64,000 bases of DNA from Patescibacteria group bacterium (GTDB lineage Bacteria; Patescibacteriota; JABMPQ01). This document shows, in pieces, positions 22,951-63,025 of the stretch. Every line of letters starts with the position of its first letter. The first letter of the stretch is position 1. Below the pieces are notes generated by a model. It saw only the letters and a program-made list of their open reading frames with translations, did no database searches and had not been told where the DNA came from. Made by a program: the position numbers and the translations under genes. Location: the NCBI GenBank assembly GCA_018818965.1, contig JAHJQX010000029.1, positions 2,982 to 66,981 on the forward strand, given 5' to 3'.

Positions 22951-23016
22951 GTAAAGCTTGAAGGATACATGAACATTGCAAACTTTCCCTAAAGGGAAGA
23001 TCGGAATAAGAAAGAA

Positions 23017-23613
23017 ATGGAAAGACATTACAAAGATAGGCTTTTCTCTGATCATTCCTGGCATGTGCCCCCACAAGATTACGCTCAAATGAAGGACAAC
23101 ATGGTTCGCTCGTGCGCGGACGCCATGGTCTTACTAGTAACGGGATGGTGGATCTTTGCAAAGGTCTACGTCCTCCTGGGCAAGCGACAACAGCACCCCC
23201 ATCCCAACTGGTGGGTAGTTGGGGGAAAGATGTGGATGGGGCTGAGCTTCGTTGCGTCGGTTGTGAAAAACGTCGCAAAGGAGCTGAAACTCAATCTTGA
23301 TCCCTCAAGGTTCGAAAACCTCAACCGAGCCTACTCACTGGCTTGGGCAACGCGTCGAGAAGAGCCGGTTAATAACGGCTGTCACGATGTCTCCCATCTC
23401 CTGGTGGCAGAGATCAGTGCAGCGGAAGCCAGCCGGATCAAGCACAACAAGGAGTACAGCGAGGTGGCATGGGTAGAATTGAAGCTAGTGGCTTCTGGTC
23501 GACAGTACCATTCGTCCTTGCGCCGAATGGCCCGAGACGTGATCGAGTTCCGCCATGGCCCACTTCGCAAGACCCTCAAAATCTGGGTCGACTGGTTCAA
23601 GCAGCTCTTTTAA
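23017..23613 (+). CDS. hypothetical 198-aa protein on GC-rich inserted segment (possible degenerate Nudix-like fold)
   Basis: Long ORF with clearly higher GC and Trp/His/Arg-rich composition than the host genes. WWVVGGKMWMG...ELKLNL weakly Nudix-box-like but catalytic Glu missing. Confidence 0.45.
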   Translation: MERHYKDRLFSDHSWHVPPQDYAQMKDNMVRSCADAMVLLVTGWWIFAKVYVLLGKRQQHPHPNWWVVGGKMWMGLSFVASVVKNVAKELKLNLDPSRFENLNRAYSLAWATRREEPVNNGCHDVSHLLVAEISAAEASRIKHNKEYSEVAWVELKLVASGRQYHSSLRRMARDVIEFRHGPLRKTLKIWVDWFKQLF

Positions 23614-42194: not shown

Positions 42195-42803
42195 ATGGAC
42201 CTACTGCAAGAATTTGAGAAAAAACAAGCAACTAGAAAAATACCTTACATCAAGCCAGGTGATACTATTAAGGTACACCAGAAAATTAAAGAGGGCGATA
42301 AACAAAGAATTCAAGTATTTGAGGGTGTTGTCATTAAAATCCACTGTGGTTTTGGTATCAATGGCAACGTAACCGTACGTAAAATTGCTTCTGGTGTCGG
42401 AGTAGAAAAGACTTTTCCTTTTCATTTACCCAGTATCACCAAACTAGAAGTAGTGAGACGGGGAAAAGTACGTCGAGCTAGGCTGTATTATCTACGCGAA
42501 TTACAGGAAAAAGCAGCTCGTCTTAAGGAGAAAAAACTAACCCAAAAAGTGAAAGATGGACTGCGTTTTGAATCGGACGAGGAAAAGAAAGAACAGGAAG
42601 CCAAAAAAGCGAAGAAGAAAGAGGAAAAGGGAACGGAAAAGGACACCAAGCTGAAAGAAGAGAAGAAGCCTGAAAATAAAAAAGGGGGGAAGTCTAAAGA
42701 AAATAAGCCTTCTCCCGCGAAAACTCCAACAGAGAAGAAAGAAAAGCCGGAAAAAGATGAAAAGGCTGAGAAGAAAGAGCCAGATAAAAAAGAGAAGAAA
42801 TAG
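42195..42803 (+). CDS. rplS: 50S ribosomal protein L19 with ~85-aa Lys/Glu-rich C-terminal extension
   Basis: L19 core in the first ~115 aa, then KE-repeat tail. Confidence 0.85.
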
Positions 42804-42823: not shown

Positions 42824-42910
42824 GCCCAGGTGGCGGAATTGGTATACGCGCATGGTTGAGGGCCATGGGGTTTTTAACCCGTGCGGGTTCAAGTCCCGCC
42901 CTGGGCACCA
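42824..42910 (+). tRNA. tRNA-Leu(GAG), class II, CCA encoded
   Basis: Acceptor GCCCAGG/CCTGGGC, anticodon loop UUGAGGG, long variable arm. Confidence 0.85.
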
Positions 42911-42924
42911 GTTCTTAATAATTT

Positions 42925-43000
42925 GGGCACTTGGCGCAGTTGGTAGCGCGACTGTTTTACACACAGTAGGTCGGGGGTTCGAATCCCTCAGTGCCCACCA
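42925..43000 (+). tRNA. tRNA-Val(TAC), CCA encoded
   Basis: Acceptor GGGCACT/AGTGCCC, anticodon loop UUUACAC. Confidence 0.85.
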
Positions 43001-53457: not shown

Positions 53458-53910
53458 TTAATTATCTGCGTTCTGAATATAAGTGATCCCCTTCTTTAAA
53501 ATCCTCCCCACGTTCTTGTAACTAGAAAACTCTACTGCCTTGTCTATATCGACCCACTTCACTGCCGTAATTTTTTCTCCAGGCTGAGGTGTCGCCTGCG
53601 CTTCGGGAGCAGCTTCAAACAAATAAAAGTGGACTAATTTGTGGATCTTACGATTGGTAAAGGTAAATTGATACTCCAACTCTCCTAGATATTCCACTAC
53701 CCGCAGCCCACTTTTAGCAAGACCCGTTTCCTCTTCTATTTCTCGCCAGGCTGCTTCTTGATTACTCTCCTCTTTTTCAATATGCCCCTTAGGAAAAGCC
53801 CACTCACCGTAAGGGTCAAGGATAAATAATATTTGCACTTTGTTGTGCCAGCGGCGATAAACAACACCACCAGCTGAATATTCTGATTCCATAAGCGAAA
53901 GCTTTTTCAT
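53458..53910 (-). CDS. NUDIX hydrolase (start placed at internal Met of ORF 53458-54051)
   Basis: Nudix box GHIEKEESNQEAAWREIEEETGL. The upstream 47 codons of the ORF look non-coding. Confidence 0.75.
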   Translation of the reverse strand: MKKLSLMESEYSAGGVVYRRWHNKVQILFILDPYGEWAFPKGHIEKEESNQEAAWREIEEETGLAKSGLRVVEYLGELEYQFTFTNRKIHKLVHFYLFEAAPEAQATPQPGEKITAVKWVDIDKAVEFSSYKNVGRILKKGITYIQNADN

Positions 53911-54067
53911 TATTCTACCACATTCAGCTCTAATTTTTAACCCTATCAAAAAGCAAAAGAGCGGCATTGTAGAGAGCCGCTCTTTTATTTCTCCGCCTTC
54001 TTCTTCCATCTCCCGGGCTAATGTTAACATCGCAAAGATTTCTGTCAACACGATTTGGGGACAAATC

Positions 54068-54229: not shown

Positions 54230-55933
54230 TTATCCCTTCTTCGCCACGCTATTAATCACCCAAATCCCCCCGCTGCCCTGATCCATCGGTTGAATCAACT
54301 GGATAATATAGGTGACGTCTTTATGTTTAGCTTCTACGGTAGCCTCACCCGCACCAGAATATTCACCACTCTCAATTTTAGAAATGAGAGTAAAGACATC
54401 TCCCGCTTGATTAAAGCCCAATTCGACTCCATCATTGAGAGCTGCCATATAAGGATCAAGCCGCCAAGCTTGGCTGCCATCATTAACTGAATTCTGCATC
54501 GCCTCCAGATCCGAGCGTTTGTGCTCGACTGCACCTGTTTTGATTTCTTCACTCGTAGAGCTGGAATCGTCCTTCTCCGATTGCTCTTCCTGTTTTATCT
54601 CCTCACCTGATATTAACCACTGGGAATCTTGATAAAAATTAATTGTATAGGTGCGCTCCTGGCTACCCTCATTGCTGTCCTCGGGAGATAACTTAACATC
54701 CACTTTTTTCTCCGATTGGCTGATGGTGGCCTCGCGTACAATCTCGTAGCGAGTGAACGTCCCCGCCAACGAACTGGATATCTCAGTTGAACCGCTTTTA
54801 AGCTCTTCAACCACCAATTCTTTGACGGTGGTGCTATCCCCTTTCATGCGAGCCACCAAGTAGGCGTCAAGAACTTCAGTATAAATACTAAAGTCAACTC
54901 CCAGGCCCCCGATTTCATACTGCGACCAGCGCGGAGCCAAGTCATTTATTTTGTTATTAGTCAGTCTTTCTTGCCCTGAGCCATCAGCATCCATAGTATA
55001 TATCTCCCAAGTTTGGCCGCCATCACGATTAGAGGCGAAAGCGATCTTTTCACCATCAGGTGAAAAACGGGGCGACTTATTACTGCCCTCGGTCGTTAAC
55101 TGTTTCTTGCCTTTTCCGTCAGCCTGAGCTAGCCAAATTTGCTCCTGGTCATCCTTCATCACTGTATAGACAATCTTCTTACCGTCCGGAGAAAGAGCTG
55201 GTTCGTATTCTTTATCCTCACCGGCAATCAAAGCAGTCACTTCTAAACCATCAGAATCAACTGTGTAAATATCACGATTGTCGTCCTCTTTTTTAACCTG
55301 GAACAAAATCTTCTTGTTCTCCGGGAAAAAGGAGGGAGAGAAAATGTCACCGGGTAAATTGTCGGCGGCAATCACTGTTGCATAATCACTACCATCCGGC
55401 TCGATAGTGGCGAGAACGTTCTTGGCCTCATCGTCTTTCCCCACCAAAACTGACATCACTAATTTTTTCCCATCATGACTCCAAGATATCTGGTGAGGTA
55501 CTCCTTCAATCTCAGGGTTAAGCAAACCGGTGCCATCAGATTTTTTGAGGCAAAGTTCGAAAACGCCCGCTAGGCAGGCGTAGGCCAAGGACTTACCATC
55601 AGGACTGATAGCTGCACTTTCGGGAGAATTTAAAGCATCAATCTTAGAAAAAGCCTGTTTTTGTTCGGTGCCATCACCCCGCATCCGCTGGATAGGATAA
55701 GTCATTCCATTAGTCATCGGCCTCTCCTGAGCCCAATAGATAAAGTCATCTGGCTGAGAAGTAGTTCCCTCTGATTGAGCTTCTTCTGTCTGAGTTTCTT
55801 CTATCGCTGTAGCCATTTCTTCTGTAGCCTCATAGGGCACTTTGATAAAAACCACCCAAGCTAAAGCTCCGCCGAAGGCAAGAGCGGTGACAACCAGAAA
55901 AATAACGATAGAAACTGCTAGTCCCTTTTTCAT
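54230..55933 (-). CDS. TolB-like WD40/PD40 beta-propeller protein with N-terminal TM and C-terminal unknown domain
   Basis: Repeated SPDGK/FSPDG propeller blades. Confidence 0.65.
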   Translation of the reverse strand: MKKGLAVSIVIFLVVTALAFGGALAWVVFIKVPYEATEEMATAIEETQTEEAQSEGTTSQPDDFIYWAQERPMTNGMTYPIQRMRGDGTEQKQAFSKIDALNSPESAAISPDGKSLAYACLAGVFELCLKKSDGTGLLNPEIEGVPHQISWSHDGKKLVMSVLVGKDDEAKNVLATIEPDGSDYATVIAADNLPGDIFSPSFFPENKKILFQVKKEDDNRDIYTVDSDGLEVTALIAGEDKEYEPALSPDGKKIVYTVMKDDQEQIWLAQADGKGKKQLTTEGSNKSPRFSPDGEKIAFASNRDGGQTWEIYTMDADGSGQERLTNNKINDLAPRWSQYEIGGLGVDFSIYTEVLDAYLVARMKGDSTTVKELVVEELKSGSTEISSSLAGTFTRYEIVREATISQSEKKVDVKLSPEDSNEGSQERTYTINFYQDSQWLISGEEIKQEEQSEKDDSSSTSEEIKTGAVEHKRSDLEAMQNSVNDGSQAWRLDPYMAALNDGVELGFNQAGDVFTLISKIESGEYSGAGEATVEAKHKDVTYIIQLIQPMDQGSGGIWVINSVAKKG

Positions 55934-55992: not shown

Positions 55993-56430
55993 ATGTCGGA
56001 AGATCTATTTCAACTAGGAATTAAAGCTCTTATTCGTAATCCAAAAGGGGAAATTTTGTTGTTGCAAATAAATCCAGAGGTTAGGGCGCGCCGGCCAGAG
56101 AAAGCTTACTGGGATCTCCCCGGCGGCCGGGTACAAAAAGGTGATACTATCAAAAACACCCTACGGCGAGAGATAACAGAAGAAACCGGAATTACTAAGC
56201 TATCGAAAACTATTTTTTTTACTTCTGTTTTGTCTAACCTGCGCGTGCCGCTAGCAGATGGAGATGTGGGTCTGATTTTATTGGTCTATCTCTGCGAAGT
56301 TGATGGGGCGAAAGATATAAAGCTCAGTGATGAACATACTAAAGCGGGCTGGTTTACGCCAGCTAAGGCTAGTAAGTTGCTACACGTAAAATACCCCGCG
56401 GAATTTTGTCAGAAAATCACCGTAATATAA
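55993..56430 (+). CDS. NUDIX hydrolase
   Basis: GGRVQKGDTIKNTLRREITEETGI Nudix box. Confidence 0.8.
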   Translation: MSEDLFQLGIKALIRNPKGEILLLQINPEVRARRPEKAYWDLPGGRVQKGDTIKNTLRREITEETGITKLSKTIFFTSVLSNLRVPLADGDVGLILLVYLCEVDGAKDIKLSDEHTKAGWFTPAKASKLLHVKYPAEFCQKITVI

Positions 56431-56494
56431 AAAAAGACGCCGGCCAATCGTGTTAACGATGGCTAGCGTTATGTTTTCTAACGGAGGTGGATGC

Positions 56495-56851
56495 TTACGC
56501 TGTTGTCGAAGGCTGCTCAGTCCCTCCAGAAGATACGCTACTGATAGCAGCCGTAGTAGCTACGGTGGCCTGCCAAGCCTCGTGCCGTGCCCAGCTCATC
56601 AGCCCAGTCAGCGGGATAAAGACAGACTCTGCCCTCCCTTGCCCACGCGGCCGAATGAGCAGCTCTTGCCCACTGACCCCGACCACCTCGACTTCGCGGT
56701 GACTGAGAGTAGCCATTAACAGCGGCGGCTCCACTACACACTCCCCCCTCTTCAGCTGTACCCGCCGCCGGTACTCATCCATGCTTCCGTCGAAAGCTTT
56801 TACCAGGAAATTAATAGCAGTCCTGTCAACACGAGGTATTCCAACGCTCAT
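56495..56851 (-). CDS. hypothetical 118-aa protein on a GC-rich island (weak PilZ-like RRxxxK ... VSGQ resemblance, speculative)
   Basis: Longest of several overlapping ORFs in a ~0.4-kb segment that is clearly GC-richer than its flanks. The frame choice is uncertain. Confidence 0.3.
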   Translation of the reverse strand: MSVGIPRVDRTAINFLVKAFDGSMDEYRRRVQLKRGECVVEPPLLMATLSHREVEVVGVSGQELLIRPRGQGRAESVFIPLTGLMSWARHEAWQATVATTAAISSVSSGGTEQPSTTA

Positions 56852-56952
56852 TTCTTCTTTCTCTTTTCAGTTCGAGCCAGTTGAACAACAAACAACGGGA
56901 GCATAAACTCTCCGTTACCAAAGAACCAATATGCTAAAACCTAATACCTAAA

Positions 56953-59118
56953 TTATTCCCAATGCATTACCTTCTCAAACTGTCCTATCCTTTCTCTTAA
57001 AAGTACATTTTCATCTAAATCCGGGTCTTTGTCAAGTAATTTATCAGCTGCCTGCTTGGCTTGCTTGATCAACCCATAGTCTGTCAAAGAAGCCATGCGT
57101 AAATCTGGCAAGCCCGATTGTTGCAGGCCATAGACTTCCCCTGGCCCCCGTATCTCCAAGTCTTTTTCCGCTAATTTAAAACCATCATGGCAGTCGACAA
57201 TTGCCTGCAAGCGCTCTTGTACTTTCTCGCCCCCCGCTTCCGTGAAAAGAAAACAATATGATTGCTGCTCCCCCCGCCCTACTCGCCCCCGGAACTGATG
57301 CAGTTGAGCCAAACCAAAACGTTCCGCACCTTCAATCATCATAATTATCGCGTTGGGTACATCAATCCCAACTTCAATCACTGAAGTCGATACCAAAATA
57401 TTCAACTTACCCGCCACAAACTCCCCCATTACCTGCTCTTTTTCCTCTTTTGGCAACCGACCGTGCAGCAAGCCAATAGCCAGCTCGGGAAAAACCTGCC
57501 GCGATAACTTATTATATTCCTCCGTGGCTGACTTAACGCCTAGCTTGTCCGATTCTTCAATTAAGGGACAAACCACGAACACTTGCCGGCCATCGCTGAC
57601 TTTCTGCCGGATAAAATTGTAGGCTTTGTCACGATTATAGGGAGCTACTAATTTAGTTATTATCTTTTGTCTGCCGGGAGGTAGTTCGCCAATGATGGAT
57701 AAGTCCAGGTCACCATAAAGACCAAGCGCTAGCGTCCGGGGAATAGGAGTAGCCGTCAGCGAAAGCAAATGGGGAGCCGTCTGCGGTTGCTGATCAATCT
57801 TCTTTAACTTAGCCCGCTGCTCTACCCCAAAACGATGTTGCTCATCAACAATTGCTAAAGCGAGTTTTTTGAATTTTACTTTATCCTGAATGAGGGCGTG
57901 GGTGCCGATGACTAGATCTAGCTTGCCCGCCTTGATCAACTTCCCCATTCCACTTTTGGATATATGAGTGCCGTTAATTGATGTTTTAATATTGCTCCGA
58001 GTAAAAAGCCCTACTTTAACCCCAAAGGGTTGTAATAATTTACTTACACCAGTAAAATGCTGCCCCGCTAAAATCTCTGTCGGAACCATTAGGGCTACTT
58101 GATACCCAGCTTTTACTACCTGCAAAGCAGAAATTGCTGCTACCACTGTTTTCCCGGAACCGACATCACCTTCAAGAAGTCGATTCATCGGCTCCGACTT
58201 TTCCAAATCCTGCAAAATCTCCCAGGCAGCTATTTTCTGTGCTTTAGTTAAAATAAAAGGCAACTGGCCGACAAACTTTTTCACTAACGGCTCATCAAAT
58301 TTAACAGCGTAAGATTTATTTTGCTGCCAAACTGCTTTCTTTTGCAACGAATTCAGCTGGATTAAAAATAGCTCGTCAAACGACAGGCGCTTGCGAGCGG
58401 CACAAAGAGATTTGGTATTGTCCGGAAAATGTATCTGTTTGATAGCAGCTGCCAGGCTAATTAAACCTTGCTTCTCGATTATTTCCTCTGGCAACCAGTC
58501 CTTTATTTCACCTACTTTGCTCAGCAGCGGTTTGATCACAAATCGTAACCAGCGTGAAGTTAAGCCAGCTGTCTCGGCATAAACCGGCACGATGCGACCA
58601 GTGTGGACTGAATCTTCTTTGTAACGTTCAAATACTGGATTGGTCAACTGCCATTTTGCTTGGTAACCACTTTCAACTTTGCCATGCAAAACAGCGCATG
58701 TTCCTACTGGCAAAGACCGTTCAATATAAGGCTGATTGAACCAAACTATCTTAAGACTAGCACTGTCATCAGAAATTACTGCCTCGGTGATGACTAGCCG
58801 ACGACGCGGAGTGCGGCTAGTATTGATCGCTTTAATCTGTCCGCGAATTGTGGCCTGCTCATTGAGTTGCAACTTTTTGATTGAAGTAATAGTACTAAAA
58901 TCATTGTAACGTTTAGGAAAATAAAAAAGCAGATCTCGGACAGTTACCAGACCTAACCTCTTCAGCGCCTGCTGACGCTTACGATCTATTTTGCGTATTT
59001 TGGTAAGAAGAGTATTGATATCCACCGCTTTTTCCAACTGGCAATTAATTGTCTGCTTAGTCAGTAACGGAGAAAAGAGTAGTTTCTTCATCAGGTTCAA
59101 CTGAAATCGTCTTTTCAA
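56953..59118 (-). CDS. recG: ATP-dependent DNA helicase RecG
   Basis: 721 aa, wedge domain, GDVGSGKT, DEQHRFGV, helicase C. Confidence 0.9.
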   Translation of the reverse strand: MKRRFQLNLMKKLLFSPLLTKQTINCQLEKAVDINTLLTKIRKIDRKRQQALKRLGLVTVRDLLFYFPKRYNDFSTITSIKKLQLNEQATIRGQIKAINTSRTPRRRLVITEAVISDDSASLKIVWFNQPYIERSLPVGTCAVLHGKVESGYQAKWQLTNPVFERYKEDSVHTGRIVPVYAETAGLTSRWLRFVIKPLLSKVGEIKDWLPEEIIEKQGLISLAAAIKQIHFPDNTKSLCAARKRLSFDELFLIQLNSLQKKAVWQQNKSYAVKFDEPLVKKFVGQLPFILTKAQKIAAWEILQDLEKSEPMNRLLEGDVGSGKTVVAAISALQVVKAGYQVALMVPTEILAGQHFTGVSKLLQPFGVKVGLFTRSNIKTSINGTHISKSGMGKLIKAGKLDLVIGTHALIQDKVKFKKLALAIVDEQHRFGVEQRAKLKKIDQQPQTAPHLLSLTATPIPRTLALGLYGDLDLSIIGELPPGRQKIITKLVAPYNRDKAYNFIRQKVSDGRQVFVVCPLIEESDKLGVKSATEEYNKLSRQVFPELAIGLLHGRLPKEEKEQVMGEFVAGKLNILVSTSVIEVGIDVPNAIIMMIEGAERFGLAQLHQFRGRVGRGEQQSYCFLFTEAGGEKVQERLQAIVDCHDGFKLAEKDLEIRGPGEVYGLQQSGLPDLRMASLTDYGLIKQAKQAADKLLDKDPDLDENVLLRERIGQFEKVMHWE

Positions 59119-61252: not shown

Positions 61253-62155
61253 TTAACCGGTCTCGGCAATATCAGCTTCGGCTGTTTGTTCTTCTAAATT
61301 GCTCCGGGCACTTTCCAGCTCAGCCATCCTTATTTCCAGGGTTTTCATTTTATCCCTCACGGCAAGCAAACCTTCGAACCCCTCTTCCGCAAATTTCCAT
61401 CTAGTTTTTTTTATCCAAGATTCATCATATCGGCCAGGATTGCTTTCTTGCTCATCAAGTCTACGCATTAGGTGTTGATATTCTGCTAATCTATCAGGAT
61501 ATTCAACCAGGTCTTGGGTTCCTTTTTCCCTAACCATCCCCTCTAATACACTATTTAATCGATGTATTCTTCGCTCGATATCTTCCCCCTCAGCTTCATT
61601 AGTTGCCTCTCCCCTCTCTCTGGCCAATTCCATTAGCCTCCTTTCAAGCTTGCTTGTCCCAGCTACATTATATGCTCGACTTTTTTCCCTTTCCAGCTCA
61701 GACATCTCCCTCTCAGCTCTCTTTTGTTCAGCAGCAAAATACTCCCGAGTTGATTCGATATCGCCTTCTTGCCAAGCTTTGATGACGATCAAGAGCTCTT
61801 TTAAATCATCCCCTTCTGCCTCAGCAACTCTATCCTGCAAATACTCAAGAGGATCTTTATTGACAGCTCGTCCGTCCACTGGGGTTTCGGCTTCCCTCCT
61901 TCTCCTTTCTACAGACAAATCAATAATATTCGCATCGTCAACATCGTGCATATCATCGCGTACAGTCCTCATCAAACCAGATTTTATCTCTTGAGGTTGT
62001 CGGCCTCTGCCCTGTCCTGGCTTTCCACTCTCTCCACTTGCCTCTGCTTCTTCTGTCATAGTAACATCATGCTCACCAGCGGGAATTACTTGATCGCTAC
62101 TTTCACGAGCAGAAAAATGTTGGTCTTCTTGCCCTGGTTGTCCTTCTCTAAACAT
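61253..62155 (-). CDS. hypothetical acidic coiled-coil protein with disordered N-terminus
   Basis: 300 aa, Glu/Arg-rich heptad-like repeats, GC-richer than neighbours. Confidence 0.5.
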   Translation of the reverse strand: MFREGQPGQEDQHFSARESSDQVIPAGEHDVTMTEEAEASGESGKPGQGRGRQPQEIKSGLMRTVRDDMHDVDDANIIDLSVERRRREAETPVDGRAVNKDPLEYLQDRVAEAEGDDLKELLIVIKAWQEGDIESTREYFAAEQKRAEREMSELEREKSRAYNVAGTSKLERRLMELARERGEATNEAEGEDIERRIHRLNSVLEGMVREKGTQDLVEYPDRLAEYQHLMRRLDEQESNPGRYDESWIKKTRWKFAEEGFEGLLAVRDKMKTLEIRMAELESARSNLEEQTAEADIAETG

Positions 62156-62245: not shown

Positions 62246-62332
62246 CGGAAGGGGTGGGATTCGAACCCACGGTCCCCGTAAGGAGACTCCGGTTTTCAAG
62301 ACCGGTACATTCGGCCACTCTGCCACCCTTCC
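62246..62332 (-). tRNA. tRNA-Ser(TGA), class II
   Basis: Reverse strand GGAAGGG...CCCTTCC acceptor, anticodon loop CUUGAAA, long variable arm. Confidence 0.85.
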
Positions 62333-62568
62333 TTAAGCCCCCATCCTTTTTTTCAGGCTATCACGAACTACAATAAAGCAAAACAGACAATCAGGCAAGC
62401 TGGCTGGGTTCCTAATTAGGCAAAAATTACCCTAAAGATACAGAAAAGTTCAATATTTAAAAACATCTACGACTTCGCAGAACTACTGCCTCCTAGAGCC
62501 AAGATTATAAGTATTGGCCGTGAGATACTAATATTTTTCTTAGGCGTGGTTTTGAATGCGCCAGAATT

Positions 62569-62738
62569 GATCTGGGACTGTCGCCGAATACGCTTTCGTC
62601 ACGAAATTTTCATATTTTGAGGCAAATGTTTTAAACAATCTTTGAAGTTTAGCCTAAGCTAAGCCGAAAAGATTTTTAGAAGATTTGACCAAAATAGGGA
62701 AATTGCAGTCGGAATGGTATTTGGCGACAGTCCCGATC
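62569..62738. repeat. imperfect 21-bp inverted repeats (GATCTGGGACTGTCGCCGAATA / TATTTGGCGACAGTCCCGATC) flanking a ~127-bp AT-rich spacer
   Basis: Read directly. 20 of 22 positions complementary with one indel. Confidence 0.6.
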
Positions 62739-62764
62739 TAGTAGACATTTTTCTGCGGGAATTA

Positions 62765-62792
62765 AAAAGCAGCCTACACTGGGCTGTTTTTT
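62765..62792 (-). terminator. bidirectional hairpin (CAGCC-N7-GGCTG) with flanking A/T runs immediately 3' of tRNA-Ser(GCT)
   Basis: Read directly. Confidence 0.6.
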
Positions 62793-62797
62793 GAAAT

Positions 62798-62884
62798 CGG
62801 AGAGGGAGGGATTCGAACCCTCGAGCCACTAATGCGGCTAACACCTTAGCAGGGTGCCCCTTTCAACCACTCAGGCACCTCTCC
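62798..62884 (-). tRNA. tRNA-Ser(GCT), class II
   Basis: Reverse strand GGAGAGG...CCTCTCC acceptor, anticodon loop CUGCUAA, long variable arm. Confidence 0.85.
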
Positions 62885-63025
62885 AATATGATTACTCGGC
62901 AAGGCCTCGGACAAAAAGTCGTAGTGCCTTCGGGTTCCGGGGTTGCTTTGGCAACCCGTCGGACGACTCGCAAGCTCGCGTCCAACCCACTCAGGCACCT
63001 CTCCAATATGATTACTCGGCAAGGC
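62865..63025. repeat. ~42-bp direct repeat (CAACC(C)ACTCAGGCACCTCTCCAATATGATTACTCGGCAAGGC) x2, 119 bp apart, duplicating the first ~20 nt of tRNA-Ser(GCT) plus its upstream sequence
   Basis: Copies at 62865-62905 and 62984-63025. GC-rich hairpins (GGGTTGC-TTTG-GCAACCC) in between. Confidence 0.8.

What the first reader, a model, noticed from the sequence alone, without database searches (positions are those of the whole stretch)
56440..56870. Second GC-rich ~0.4-kb island between a Nudix gene and recG with an orphan 118-aa ORF of foreign composition
The segment is conspicuously GC-richer than its flanks by eye. Multiple overlapping ORFs on both strands are typical of high-GC DNA. The best candidate (56495-56851, minus strand) starts with an AT-rich N-terminus and a gaaagaagaaATG context similar to the 23017 ORF (aagaaagaaATG). 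Its product has a faint PilZ-like RRxxxK...VSGQ pattern. Together with the mutM cassette this suggests repeated acquisition from a GC-richer donor, possibly a host organism.
Basis: partly seen in the sequence, partly recalled or inferred. Interest (0 to 1): 0.6.

Follow-up and report, generated by a model that had tools for sequence, protein, structure and literature searches.

The report
Clade-restricted GC-rich small gene after recG
The GC-rich patch is real, and it is the body of one small protein-coding gene of unknown function that three related Parcubacteria genomes carry just after recG, so it is an old, fast-evolving, lineage-specific gene, not a fresh import, an assembly error or a PilZ protein.

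Summary
Bases 56500-56800 reach about 58-65% GC in a 42.4% GC window and are one of the two strongest GC outliers in 64 kb. The island coincides with a 118-aa ORF (56495-56851, minus strand) between recG and a convergent Nudix gene.

- **It is a real gene.** Exhaustive HMMER finds one homolog (E 1.2e-10), and a third, weaker one lies in another MAG. All three sit directly 3' of recG, and only the annotated frame is stop-free in all three. Third codon positions are the least conserved. AlphaFold2 on the three sequences gives pLDDT 77.
- **The GC-richness is a family trait.** All three orthologs have about 57.5% GC and raised GC3, although their genomes have diverged to about 1 substitution per four-fold site. 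The gene therefore predates the split of these species and is not a recent acquisition. No donor, mobility gene or phage or plasmid relative was found.
- **It is not PilZ.** There is no Pfam hit, the motifs are not conserved, and no PilZ structure appears among the 50 fold matches listed.

The predicted fold is two helices, an SH3-like small β-barrel, a helix and a disordered tail. Function is unknown, and a binding or adaptor role is only inferred. The site is a variable slot holding different small GC-rich ORFs in relatives. Interest is low to moderate.

The parts
56495..56851 (-). ORF118, a 118-aa protein-coding gene (NCBI: hypothetical protein KJ903_04230). It forms the GC-rich island (GC 0.577; GC1/2/3 = 0.63/0.51/0.59).
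   Evidence: Homolog P0002 at E 1.2e-10. The frame is stop-free in all three orthologs. Nucleotide identity by codon position is 0.53/0.52/0.39. AF2 pLDDT 77 and pTM 0.63.
56852..56868 (-). All-purine translation-initiation leader GAAAAGAGAAAGAAGAA directly 5' of the ATG.
   Evidence: Sequence. Its purine fraction of 16/16 is the highest of 66 gene leaders in a genome where most genes lack a Shine-Dalgarno motif. Purine-rich leaders also precede the orthologs and the other slot ORFs.
56918..56940 (-). Conserved leader block GTTTTAGCATATTGGTTCTTTGG between the recG stop and ORF118. It differs at 2 of 23 positions in L003 and is partly kept in L141. It may be a promoter or regulatory element; this is inferred.
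   Evidence: Alignments. No consensus RNA structure (-2.15 kcal/mol).
56884..56913 (-). Short hairpin (GGAG...CTCC) followed by a T-rich run after recG. L003 has GGGGC...GCCCC at the same place. It may be a weak recG terminator; this is inferred.
   Evidence: Read from the sequence. Not detected by the terminator scan.
56429..56470 (.). Imperfect hairpin with an A/T run between the convergent stop codons of ORF118 and Nudix145. It is a likely bidirectional terminator; this is inferred.
   Evidence: Read from the sequence. It is the last hairpin in the MFE fold of the minus strand. Not called by the simple scan. L140 has a clean GGTCTG...CAGACC + T7 terminator after its ortholog.
56953..59118 (-). 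recG, the conserved upstream flank on the same strand as ORF118.
   Evidence: Pfam RecG_wedge, DEAD, Helicase_C and RecG_dom3_C. 81-83% aa identity to L002, L003 and L141.
55993..56430 (+). Nudix145, a convergent NUDIX hydrolase gene of native composition (GC 0.43). It occupies this slot only in the window's genome.
   Evidence: Pfam NUDIX 4.9e-20. Composition. Absent between recG and the PD40 gene in L002, L003 and L140.
54230..55933 (-). PD40/Tricorn-like β-propeller protein, the conserved far flank of the variable slot.
   Evidence: Pfam PD40 1.1e-27. Orthologs at 67-72% identity in L002, L003 and L140.

Best explanation
The island is the coding body of a genuine small gene restricted to one clade. 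It has its own purine-rich initiation region and a hairpin plus T-run after its stop. It lies about 100 nt 3' of recG on the same strand.

Shown:
- The gene belongs to a three-member family found only in a narrow Parcubacteria clade, always in the slot between recG and a PD40 β-propeller gene.
- It was present in the common ancestor of these genomes and was lost from one of them (L002).
- Its protein evolves far faster than its neighbours: 22-40% identity, against 81-83% for RecG.
- Its GC-richness is shared by all orthologs. About 60% of the excess comes from a Gly/Ala/Arg/Pro/Val/Ser/Thr-rich, Lys/Ile/Asn-poor amino-acid composition, and about 40% comes from GC-ending codons.

Inferred:
- The product is a cytoplasmic protein with two N-terminal helices, an SH3-like small β-barrel, a C-terminal helix and a disordered tail.
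- By analogy with Tudor, PWWP, KOW and Sm barrels, it acts as a nucleic-acid- or protein-binding adaptor.
- The GC-rich composition reflects either an old acquisition by the clade ancestor from a very GC-rich source, still incompletely ameliorated, or a gene-specific constraint that holds GC high.

It is not a recent import, not PilZ, not an ncRNA and not a chimera.
For: - Composition outlier.
- Homologs: phmmer against 1.84 billion representatives finds only P0002 (E 1.2e-10, 40% identity over residues 3-99). P0002 is encoded as recG -> ORF129 -> PD40 in L140 and L141.
- Third member: L003 carries a 145-aa ORF in the same position with a conserved leader and an ATGAGC start. With a 2-sequence HMM it is the top non-self hit among 12,525 six-frame ORFs from 146 loci (E 0.07).
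- Reading frame: the sense frame has 0 stops in all three orthologs and no other frame does. Nucleotide identity by codon position is 0.53/0.52/0.39. The sense-frame translation gives the best of the six-frame cross-comparisons (63.9 bits).
- Fold: AF2 pLDDT rises from 63 with a single sequence to 77 (pTM 0.63) with the 3-sequence alignment. Foldseek PDB top matches are PWWP, KOW, Hfq and myosin SH3-like barrels (E about 0.1, prob up to 0.99, TM 0.38/0.52).
- Family-wide GC: 0.574-0.577 with GC3 0.57-0.70, against 0.44-0.47 for the flanking genes. GC3 excess given amino-acid sequence is z = +3.4, +2.9 and +6.4. Expected GC from amino acids alone is 0.526, against 0.584 observed and 0.43 background.
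- Age: RecG is 81-83% identical and four-fold sites differ by JC d 1.0-1.6 between genomes.
- Loss in L002: L002 lacks about 790 bp that L003 has (RecG 92% identical between the two), starting right after the recG stop.
- Independent assembly: identical.
Against: - The family has only three members, and the third is supported weakly by sequence alone (pairwise E 0.008-0.05, HMM E 0.07).
- The codon-aligned antisense frame also scores well between window and L140 (57 bits), and it is fully open in L003.
- Fold matches are not significant (E about 0.1), so the SH3-like assignment and any binding function rest on a medium-confidence model.
- GC class at four-fold sites is almost randomised between these genomes (mismatch 0.40-0.50, against about 0.50 at saturation). 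A passively ameliorating ancestral import would therefore need a starting GC3 of roughly 0.8-1.0 (my rough estimate). That strains the old-acquisition account, above all for L003.
- At four-fold sites alone the excess in ORF118 is small (0.52 against 0.45-0.47, n=69).
- There is no expression evidence.
Confidence: 0.72

Rival explanations
1. Recent horizontal acquisition, possibly repeated and possibly from a host organism. A GC-richer donor supplied this cassette and the 23017-23613 cassette to this genome.
For: Both ORFs are the top GC and GC3 outliers of the window. Both are near-orphans. The slot content differs between relatives.
Against: Homologs of ORF118 occupy the same position, with a conserved leader, in genomes separated by about 1 substitution per four-fold site. 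No donor homolog was found in 5.8 billion proteins, 1.84 billion representatives, phages, plasmids or viral contigs. No integrase or att-like repeats. The two islands are unrelated. The dinucleotide signature is not an outlier.
Confidence: 0.08
2. Independent allelic replacement. The three 'orthologs' are divergent alleles drawn separately from an unsampled GC-rich mobile pool and swapped into the slot by recombination in the conserved flanks. This would explain both the extreme divergence and the persistently high GC3.
For: Protein identity is 22-40%, although the leader is about 70% identical and RecG 81-83%. GC3 stays at 0.57-0.70, although GC class at four-fold sites of neighbouring genes is near saturation. 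A second GC-rich ORF family and a Nudix gene come and go in the same slot.
Against: No member of such a pool was found anywhere. There are no mobility genes. The leader and start codon, which would lie inside the swapped segment, are conserved like resident DNA.
Confidence: 0.12
3. Not a protein gene. The GC-rich island would be a structured non-coding RNA or other DNA element, and the ORF a by-product of stop-poor GC-rich sequence.
For: GC-rich islands in AT-rich genomes are often structured RNAs. Several ORFs overlap on both strands. At this GC content a 118-codon open frame has roughly a 1.5% chance per frame (my estimate). The antisense frame is open in L003.
Against: No Rfam match at gathering threshold, or at E<=10 on the island. 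MFE z-scores are -0.37 and -1.30. The sense frame alone is open in all three orthologs. Third positions are the least conserved. Start and stop coincide with a conserved leader and with terminators. AF2 gives pLDDT 77.
Confidence: 0.05
4. A degenerate PilZ-type c-di-GMP receptor.
For: The single sequence shows RRRVQLKR ... GVSGQ, which loosely recalls RxxxR ... (D/N)xSxxG. The core is predicted to be a β-barrel.
Against: No Pfam hit for any member, even at E<=10. The motif residues are not conserved across the family (YRRRVQL-KR / YRRRVKSPEK / YRQRFMPDGK and GVSGQ / KASGG / AMTGN), and there is no D/N. No PilZ structure appears among the 50 Foldseek PDB matches listed.
Confidence: 0.02

Closest known systems
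Lineage-specific orphan ('ORFan') genes in small variable genomic islets flanked by conserved core genes
   Same: Membership is limited to a narrow clade. The gene sits in a slot between conserved genes (recG and the PD40 gene) whose content differs between close relatives. Base composition and codon usage are atypical, the protein evolves quickly, and function is unknown.
   Different: The gene is positionally conserved across species that are saturated at synonymous sites, yet it keeps its high GC. No mobility genes, repeats or donor were identified.
SH3-like small β-barrel domains (Tudor/PWWP 'Royal' family, KOW of NusG/Spt5, Sm/Hfq)
   Same: The predicted core (residues about 31-86) is a small β-barrel followed by a helix. 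The best PDB structural neighbours are PWWP, KOW and Hfq.
   Different: Matches are weak (E about 0.1, TM 0.3-0.5). There is no sequence similarity and no Pfam hit. The two N-terminal helices and the low-complexity tail are not part of those domains. Membership is not established.
PilZ domain (PF07238)
   Same: Small size, a β-rich core and an Arg-rich stretch before the barrel.
   Different: The HMM, motif and fold tests all fail.

Membership tests
PilZ domain (c-di-GMP receptor) | Match to the Pfam PilZ profile (PF07238) | tested here: not met
   No Pfam family at E<=1 for ORF118, or for P0002 and the L003 ortholog. None at E<=10 for all three.
PilZ domain (c-di-GMP receptor) | Conserved RxxxR and (D/N)xSxxG c-di-GMP-binding motifs (established knowledge of the family) | tested here: not met
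   Family alignment: YRRRVQL-KR / YRRRVKSPEK / YRQRFMPDGK, and GVSGQ / KASGG / AMTGN. No conserved Arg pair at i/i+4, no D/N, and the Gly is at the wrong spacing.
PilZ domain (c-di-GMP receptor) | PilZ β-barrel fold | tested here: not met
   Foldseek against the PDB with the pLDDT-77 model shows no PilZ structure among the 50 matches listed. The neighbours are PWWP, KOW, Hfq and SH3.
Genuine protein-coding gene | Reading frame kept open in homologs while other frames are not | tested here: met
   The sense frame has 0 stops in window, L140 and L003. Every other frame has at least 1 stop in at least two of them.
Genuine protein-coding gene | Protein-level homologs and a codon-position substitution pattern | tested here: met
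   phmmer E 1.2e-10. Nucleotide identity is 0.53/0.52/0.39 at codon positions 1/2/3. The sense frame gives the best of the six-frame comparisons (63.9 against 57.0 bits and below).
Genuine protein-coding gene | Evidence of expression (transcript or peptide) | not testable with these tools
   No transcriptome or proteome data are available.
Recently horizontally acquired island | Atypical base composition and codon usage | tested here: met
   GC 0.577 against 0.43. GC3 z = +3.4 given the amino-acid sequence. The GC-normalised dinucleotide signature is not an outlier (low power).
Recently horizontally acquired island | Absence from close relatives at the same site | tested here: not met
   Homologs lie at the same site in L003 and in L140/L141. 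The gene is absent only from L002, best read as a deletion of about 790 bp.
Recently horizontally acquired island | Identifiable donor lineage or mobile-element hallmarks (integrase, att repeats, tRNA target) | tested here: not met
   No homolog outside the clade. No integrase among the neighbours. Only short, dissimilar repeats flank the ORF.
Structured non-coding RNA | Match to a known RNA family, or thermodynamic or covariation support | tested here: not met
   Rfam gives nothing on the island. Fold z-scores are -0.37 and -1.30.
SH3-like small β-barrel (Tudor/PWWP/KOW/Sm) | Significant structural match of the barrel core | tested here: inconclusive

The most novel reading that the evidence does not exclude
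In this Parcubacteria clade the slot 3' of recG always holds at least one small, GC-rich, very fast-evolving protein. The two ORF families seen there (ORF118 type, and the L002/L003 111/132-aa type) would be extremely diverged paralogs of one recG-linked factor. Its high GC would be held by selection, for example on mRNA structure or a GARP-rich binding surface, while its sequence races as in a conflict with a host or phage. That would make it a persistent, compositionally insulated 'arms-race' gene and not a transferred one.
Probability: 0.1. Interest if true: 0.5.

Novelty: new member of a known kind. Interest (0 to 1): 0.25.

Why it matters
The main value is as a caution. A GC-rich, orphan-looking ORF in an AT-rich CPR genome looks like fresh horizontal transfer, but comparison with relatives shows an old, syntenic, rapidly diverging gene whose composition is a family trait.

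It adds a three-member small-protein family with a confidently predicted but unassigned fold to the large pool of uncharacterised Patescibacteria proteins. It also marks the recG-PD40 interval as a small variable slot in this clade.

The one unexplained point is why GC3 stays high after synonymous sites have nearly saturated. That would matter for amelioration-based dating of transfers if it proved general.

Tried and rejected
- **Known RNA families.** Rfam at gathering threshold on the whole window, and at E<=10 on 56300-57000, gave only tRNAs elsewhere and noise. tRNA/tmRNA scan: nothing in the island.
- **Single-sequence folding.** Neither strand is significant. The consensus fold of the leader is negligible.
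- **Protein family libraries.** Pfam, NCBIfam and PHROGs gave nothing for ORF118 or its relatives. PADLOC was not run: the one call that included it failed on a coordinate error and was not repeated. A PDB sequence search with the family profile gave nothing.
- **Antisense ORF.** The ORF at 56487-56702 gives a faint Pfam hit to the RbcS transit peptide (E 0.0023, 18.5 bits, below the cutoff of 25). I rejected it as a low-complexity Ser/Ala/Thr match, because the antisense frames of the orthologs are interrupted and dissimilar.
- **Known mobile DNA.** tblastn and blastn against phages and plasmids gave no meaningful match. Viral contig scans with both slot families found none.
- **Closer relatives.** A metagenome scan with RecG found none closer than about 52%.
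- **Link between the two slot families.** hhalign gave E 0.02-0.085, but 14 of 300 column shuffles reach that score, so the link is not established.
- **Flanking inverted repeats as TIRs.** They are short and differ between genomes, so they are probably chance.
- **Selection within the L140 strain.** All 7 contigs are identical at the DNA level, so they carry no information.
- **Literature.** Searches found nothing relevant.

Full report
**Observation**

The window averages 42.4% GC. Over 360-bp windows the mean is 0.424 and the sd 0.040. Only two regions reach the top of that distribution: 23000-23500 and 56200-56800, with a maximum of 0.586. Across 56500-56749, 100-bp windows reach 0.59-0.65. 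A NUDIX gene lies at 55993-56430 (+) and recG at 56953-59118 (-). The 118-aa minus-strand ORF at 56495-56851, the shorter overlapping ORFs on both strands, and the ...aaagagaaagaagaaATG context are all present. Among 71 long ORFs of the window, ORF118 has the highest GC, GC1 and GC2. Its GC3 is 0.588, against mean 0.405 and sd 0.060, second only to the ORF at 23017-23613. A Logan assembly of SRR6514730 matches the window exactly over 15,231 bp spanning the island and both junctions, so a chimeric join is unlikely.

**RNA or protein?**

GC-rich islands in AT-rich genomes are often structured RNAs, so I tested that first. Rfam finds only tRNAs elsewhere in the window and nothing on the island, even at E<=10. 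ARAGORN finds no tmRNA. Neither strand folds better than shuffled sequence (z = -0.37 and -1.30).

The protein evidence came from exhaustive search and synteny.
- The k-mer-seeded search of 5.8 billion proteins returned only the ORF itself, annotated 'hypothetical protein KJ903_04230, Patescibacteria group bacterium'.
- Full phmmer against 1.84 billion representatives found one homolog, P0002 (129 aa, E 1.2e-10, 40% identity over residues 3-99).
- P0002 is encoded on seven contigs that are identical at the DNA level. Their gene order is recG -> ORF129 -> PD40 β-propeller -> 52-aa ORF -> NUDIX -> Holliday-junction-endonuclease-like -> permease. Apart from one extra gene, this is the order in the window.

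**Relatives and the variable slot**

A RecG-based scan of species-representative genomes gave two close relatives, L002 and L003 (RecG 81-82% identical to the window). The contigs carrying P0002 (L140 and L141) are equally distant (RecG 82%). L002 and L003 are closer to each other (92%). The content between recG and the PD40 gene differs in each genome:

| Genome | Content of the slot between recG and the PD40 gene |
|---|---|
| Window | ORF118, plus a convergent Nudix145 of native composition |
| L140/L141 | ORF129 only |
| L003 | A 145-aa ORF, plus an unrelated-looking 132-aa ORF |
| L002 | Only a 111-aa homolog of the L003 132-aa ORF |

The L003 145-aa ORF begins at the same place as ORF118. 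It follows a leader that aligns with the window's, including the block GTTTTAG[C/T]ATATT[G/C]GTTCTTTGG, a short hairpin, a purine-rich stretch and an ATGAGC start. Its protein similarity to the family is weak: pairwise E is 0.008-0.05 to ORF118 and 6e-4 to P0002. Even so, with an HMM built from ORF118 and P0002 alone, it is the best non-self hit among 12,525 six-frame ORFs from all 146 fetched loci (E 0.07). Shared landmarks are F15, A19, Y27-R28-x-R30, P43-L44, A47-T48, V56, G61, L84, W87 and W93. A direct L002/L003 alignment shows that L002 lacks about 790 bp starting right after the recG stop. Because the window, L140/L141 and L003 all carry the gene, loss in L002 is the parsimonious reading. 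No further member lies downstream of recG in more distant Parcubacteria, in the profile search of 5.8 billion proteins or in viral contigs.

**Coding evidence**

- The annotated frame has no stop in any of the three orthologs. Every other frame is interrupted in at least two of them; the codon-aligned antisense frame has 1, 1 and 0 stops.
- Threading the DNA on the protein alignment gives nucleotide identities of 0.53/0.52/0.39 at codon positions 1/2/3 for window against L140.
- In six-frame cross-comparisons the sense frame scores best, at 63.9 bits. The antisense partner scores 57.0 bits, which is expected for codon-aligned antisense frames, so this test is supportive and not decisive.
- Each ortholog has a purine-rich leader, and a hairpin plus T-run follows its stop.
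- AlphaFold2 gives pLDDT 63 from the single sequence and 77 (pTM 0.63) from the three-sequence alignment.

I take the gene as real, with confidence of about 0.85-0.9.

**What the protein looks like**

**PilZ**

All three tests fail.
- No Pfam hit for any member, even at E<=10.
- The 'RRxxxK ... VSGQ' pattern is not conserved in the family. There is no Arg pair at the right spacing, no D/N, and the Gly is misplaced.
- No PilZ structure appears among the 50 structural matches listed.

**Composition and origin**

All three orthologs have 57.4-57.7% GC, against 44-47% for their neighbours, and GC3 of 0.57-0.70. Using the window's own codon table, the amino-acid sequence of ORF118 predicts 0.526 GC, against 0.584 observed and a coding background of 0.43. 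About 60% of the excess therefore comes from amino-acid composition (Val, Ser, Arg, Ala, Gly and Thr high; Lys, Ile and Asn low) and about 40% from codon choice. The GC3 excess is z = +3.4 for ORF118, +2.9 for the L140 ortholog and +6.4 for the L003 ortholog. The second slot family in L002 and L003 shows the same excess (z = +3.9 each), and so does ORF198 of the other island (+5.9). The flanking genes do not. The GC-normalised dinucleotide signature of the island is not an outlier, although 400-bp windows have little power.

The genomes are old relative to one another. Four-fold sites in recG and the PD40 gene differ by JC d of about 1.0-1.6. The GC-class mismatch at those sites is 0.40-0.50, close to the saturation value of about 0.50. 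Three consequences follow.
- The gene was not acquired recently by the window's genome.
- If it was imported once by the clade ancestor and has since drifted toward the host composition, the starting GC3 must have been very high. My rough two-state estimate is 0.8-1.0, which is strained for L003.
- The alternatives are a gene-specific force keeping GC high, or separate replacement from an unsampled GC-rich pool.

None of these can be settled with three sequences. At four-fold sites alone the excess in ORF118 is small (0.52 against 0.45-0.47, n=69). No donor, integrase, tRNA target or convincing flanking repeat was found.

**The other island**

ORF198 (23017-23613) is a divergent NUDIX protein (Pfam 1.1e-5, above the family cutoff). 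It too is found only in this organism. It has no protein or DNA similarity to ORF118. The two islands are therefore alike in composition only.

**Verdict**

It is a clade-restricted, fast-evolving small protein gene in a variable slot 3' of recG. NCBI already annotates it as hypothetical. It is not PilZ, not an RNA, not an artefact and not a recent import.

It is a new member of a known kind: an orphan gene in a variable islet. The one open question is why GC3 stays high after synonymous saturation. A faint local similarity between the two slot families (hhalign E 0.02-0.085, reached by 14 of 300 shuffles) leaves open, at about 10%, that a single recG-linked factor always occupies this slot. 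Interest: 0.25.

Noticed in passing
window 23017-23613 (+): The other GC island is a 198-aa ORF with a divergent NUDIX domain (Pfam 1.1e-5, 25.9 bits, above the cutoff of 21.1). NCBI annotates a 174-aa version as a NUDIX hydrolase. It is found only in this organism. Its GC3 of 0.645 is the highest in the window (z = +5.9 given its amino acids). It is unrelated to ORF118.
   Followed up: partly
window 55993-56430 (+): Nudix145 has native composition (GC 0.43) and occupies the recG-PD40 slot only in this genome. It is absent at that site in L002, L003 and L140, so the slot gains and loses whole genes. The window thus carries three NUDIX genes (this one, 23017-23613 and 53458-54051).
   Followed up: partly
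L002 3887-4222 and L003 3046-3444: A second small GC-rich ORF family (111 and 132 aa, 48% identical, basic N-terminus, conserved FFPSTKA C-terminus) lies in the same slot in relatives. It gives no Pfam or PHROGs hit. A weak local resemblance to the ORF118 family (A..G.M..E..RR....G....PP..V) is not significant: 14 of 300 shuffles reach its score.
   Followed up: partly
L003 2766-2791: A perfect 12-nt palindrome (AAGAACAAAAAC/GTTTTTGTTCTT, 2-nt loop) sits in the spacer between the two slot ORFs. Its right arm is part of TTTTGTTCTTTCG, which recurs 207 bp downstream. No function is assigned.
   Followed up: no
window 56474-56486 and 56910-56922; L140 655-674/1123-1142 and 608-617/1082-1091: Short inverted repeats bracket ORF118 (13 nt, 85% complementary). 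Inverted repeats (20 nt, 85%) and a perfect 10-nt direct repeat (ATTTGCACCT) bracket its ortholog in L140. The sequences differ between genomes and are partly low-complexity, so they are probably chance, though they could mark deletion-prone boundaries.
   Followed up: partly
window, 25 nt upstream of 66 ORF starts: Most genes of this genome have AT-rich leaders without a recognisable Shine-Dalgarno motif. The ORF118 leader is 16/16 purines, the most purine-rich of all. Starts were taken as the longest ORF and were not curated.
   Followed up: no
window 56487-56702 (+): The antisense 71-aa ORF gives a sub-threshold Pfam hit to the RuBisCO small-subunit transit-peptide family (PF12338, E 0.0023, 18.5 against a cutoff of 25 bits). 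I judged it a low-complexity coincidence, because the orthologous antisense frames are interrupted.
   Followed up: yes
window 42300-42700 and 61400-61800: These regions have the strongest GC-normalised dinucleotide-signature deviations in the window (δ* up to 0.33, against mean 0.11). They lie near tRNA genes (42824-43000, 62246-62885). The 42401-42800 window also has an AT skew of 0.548. They were not examined.
   Followed up: no
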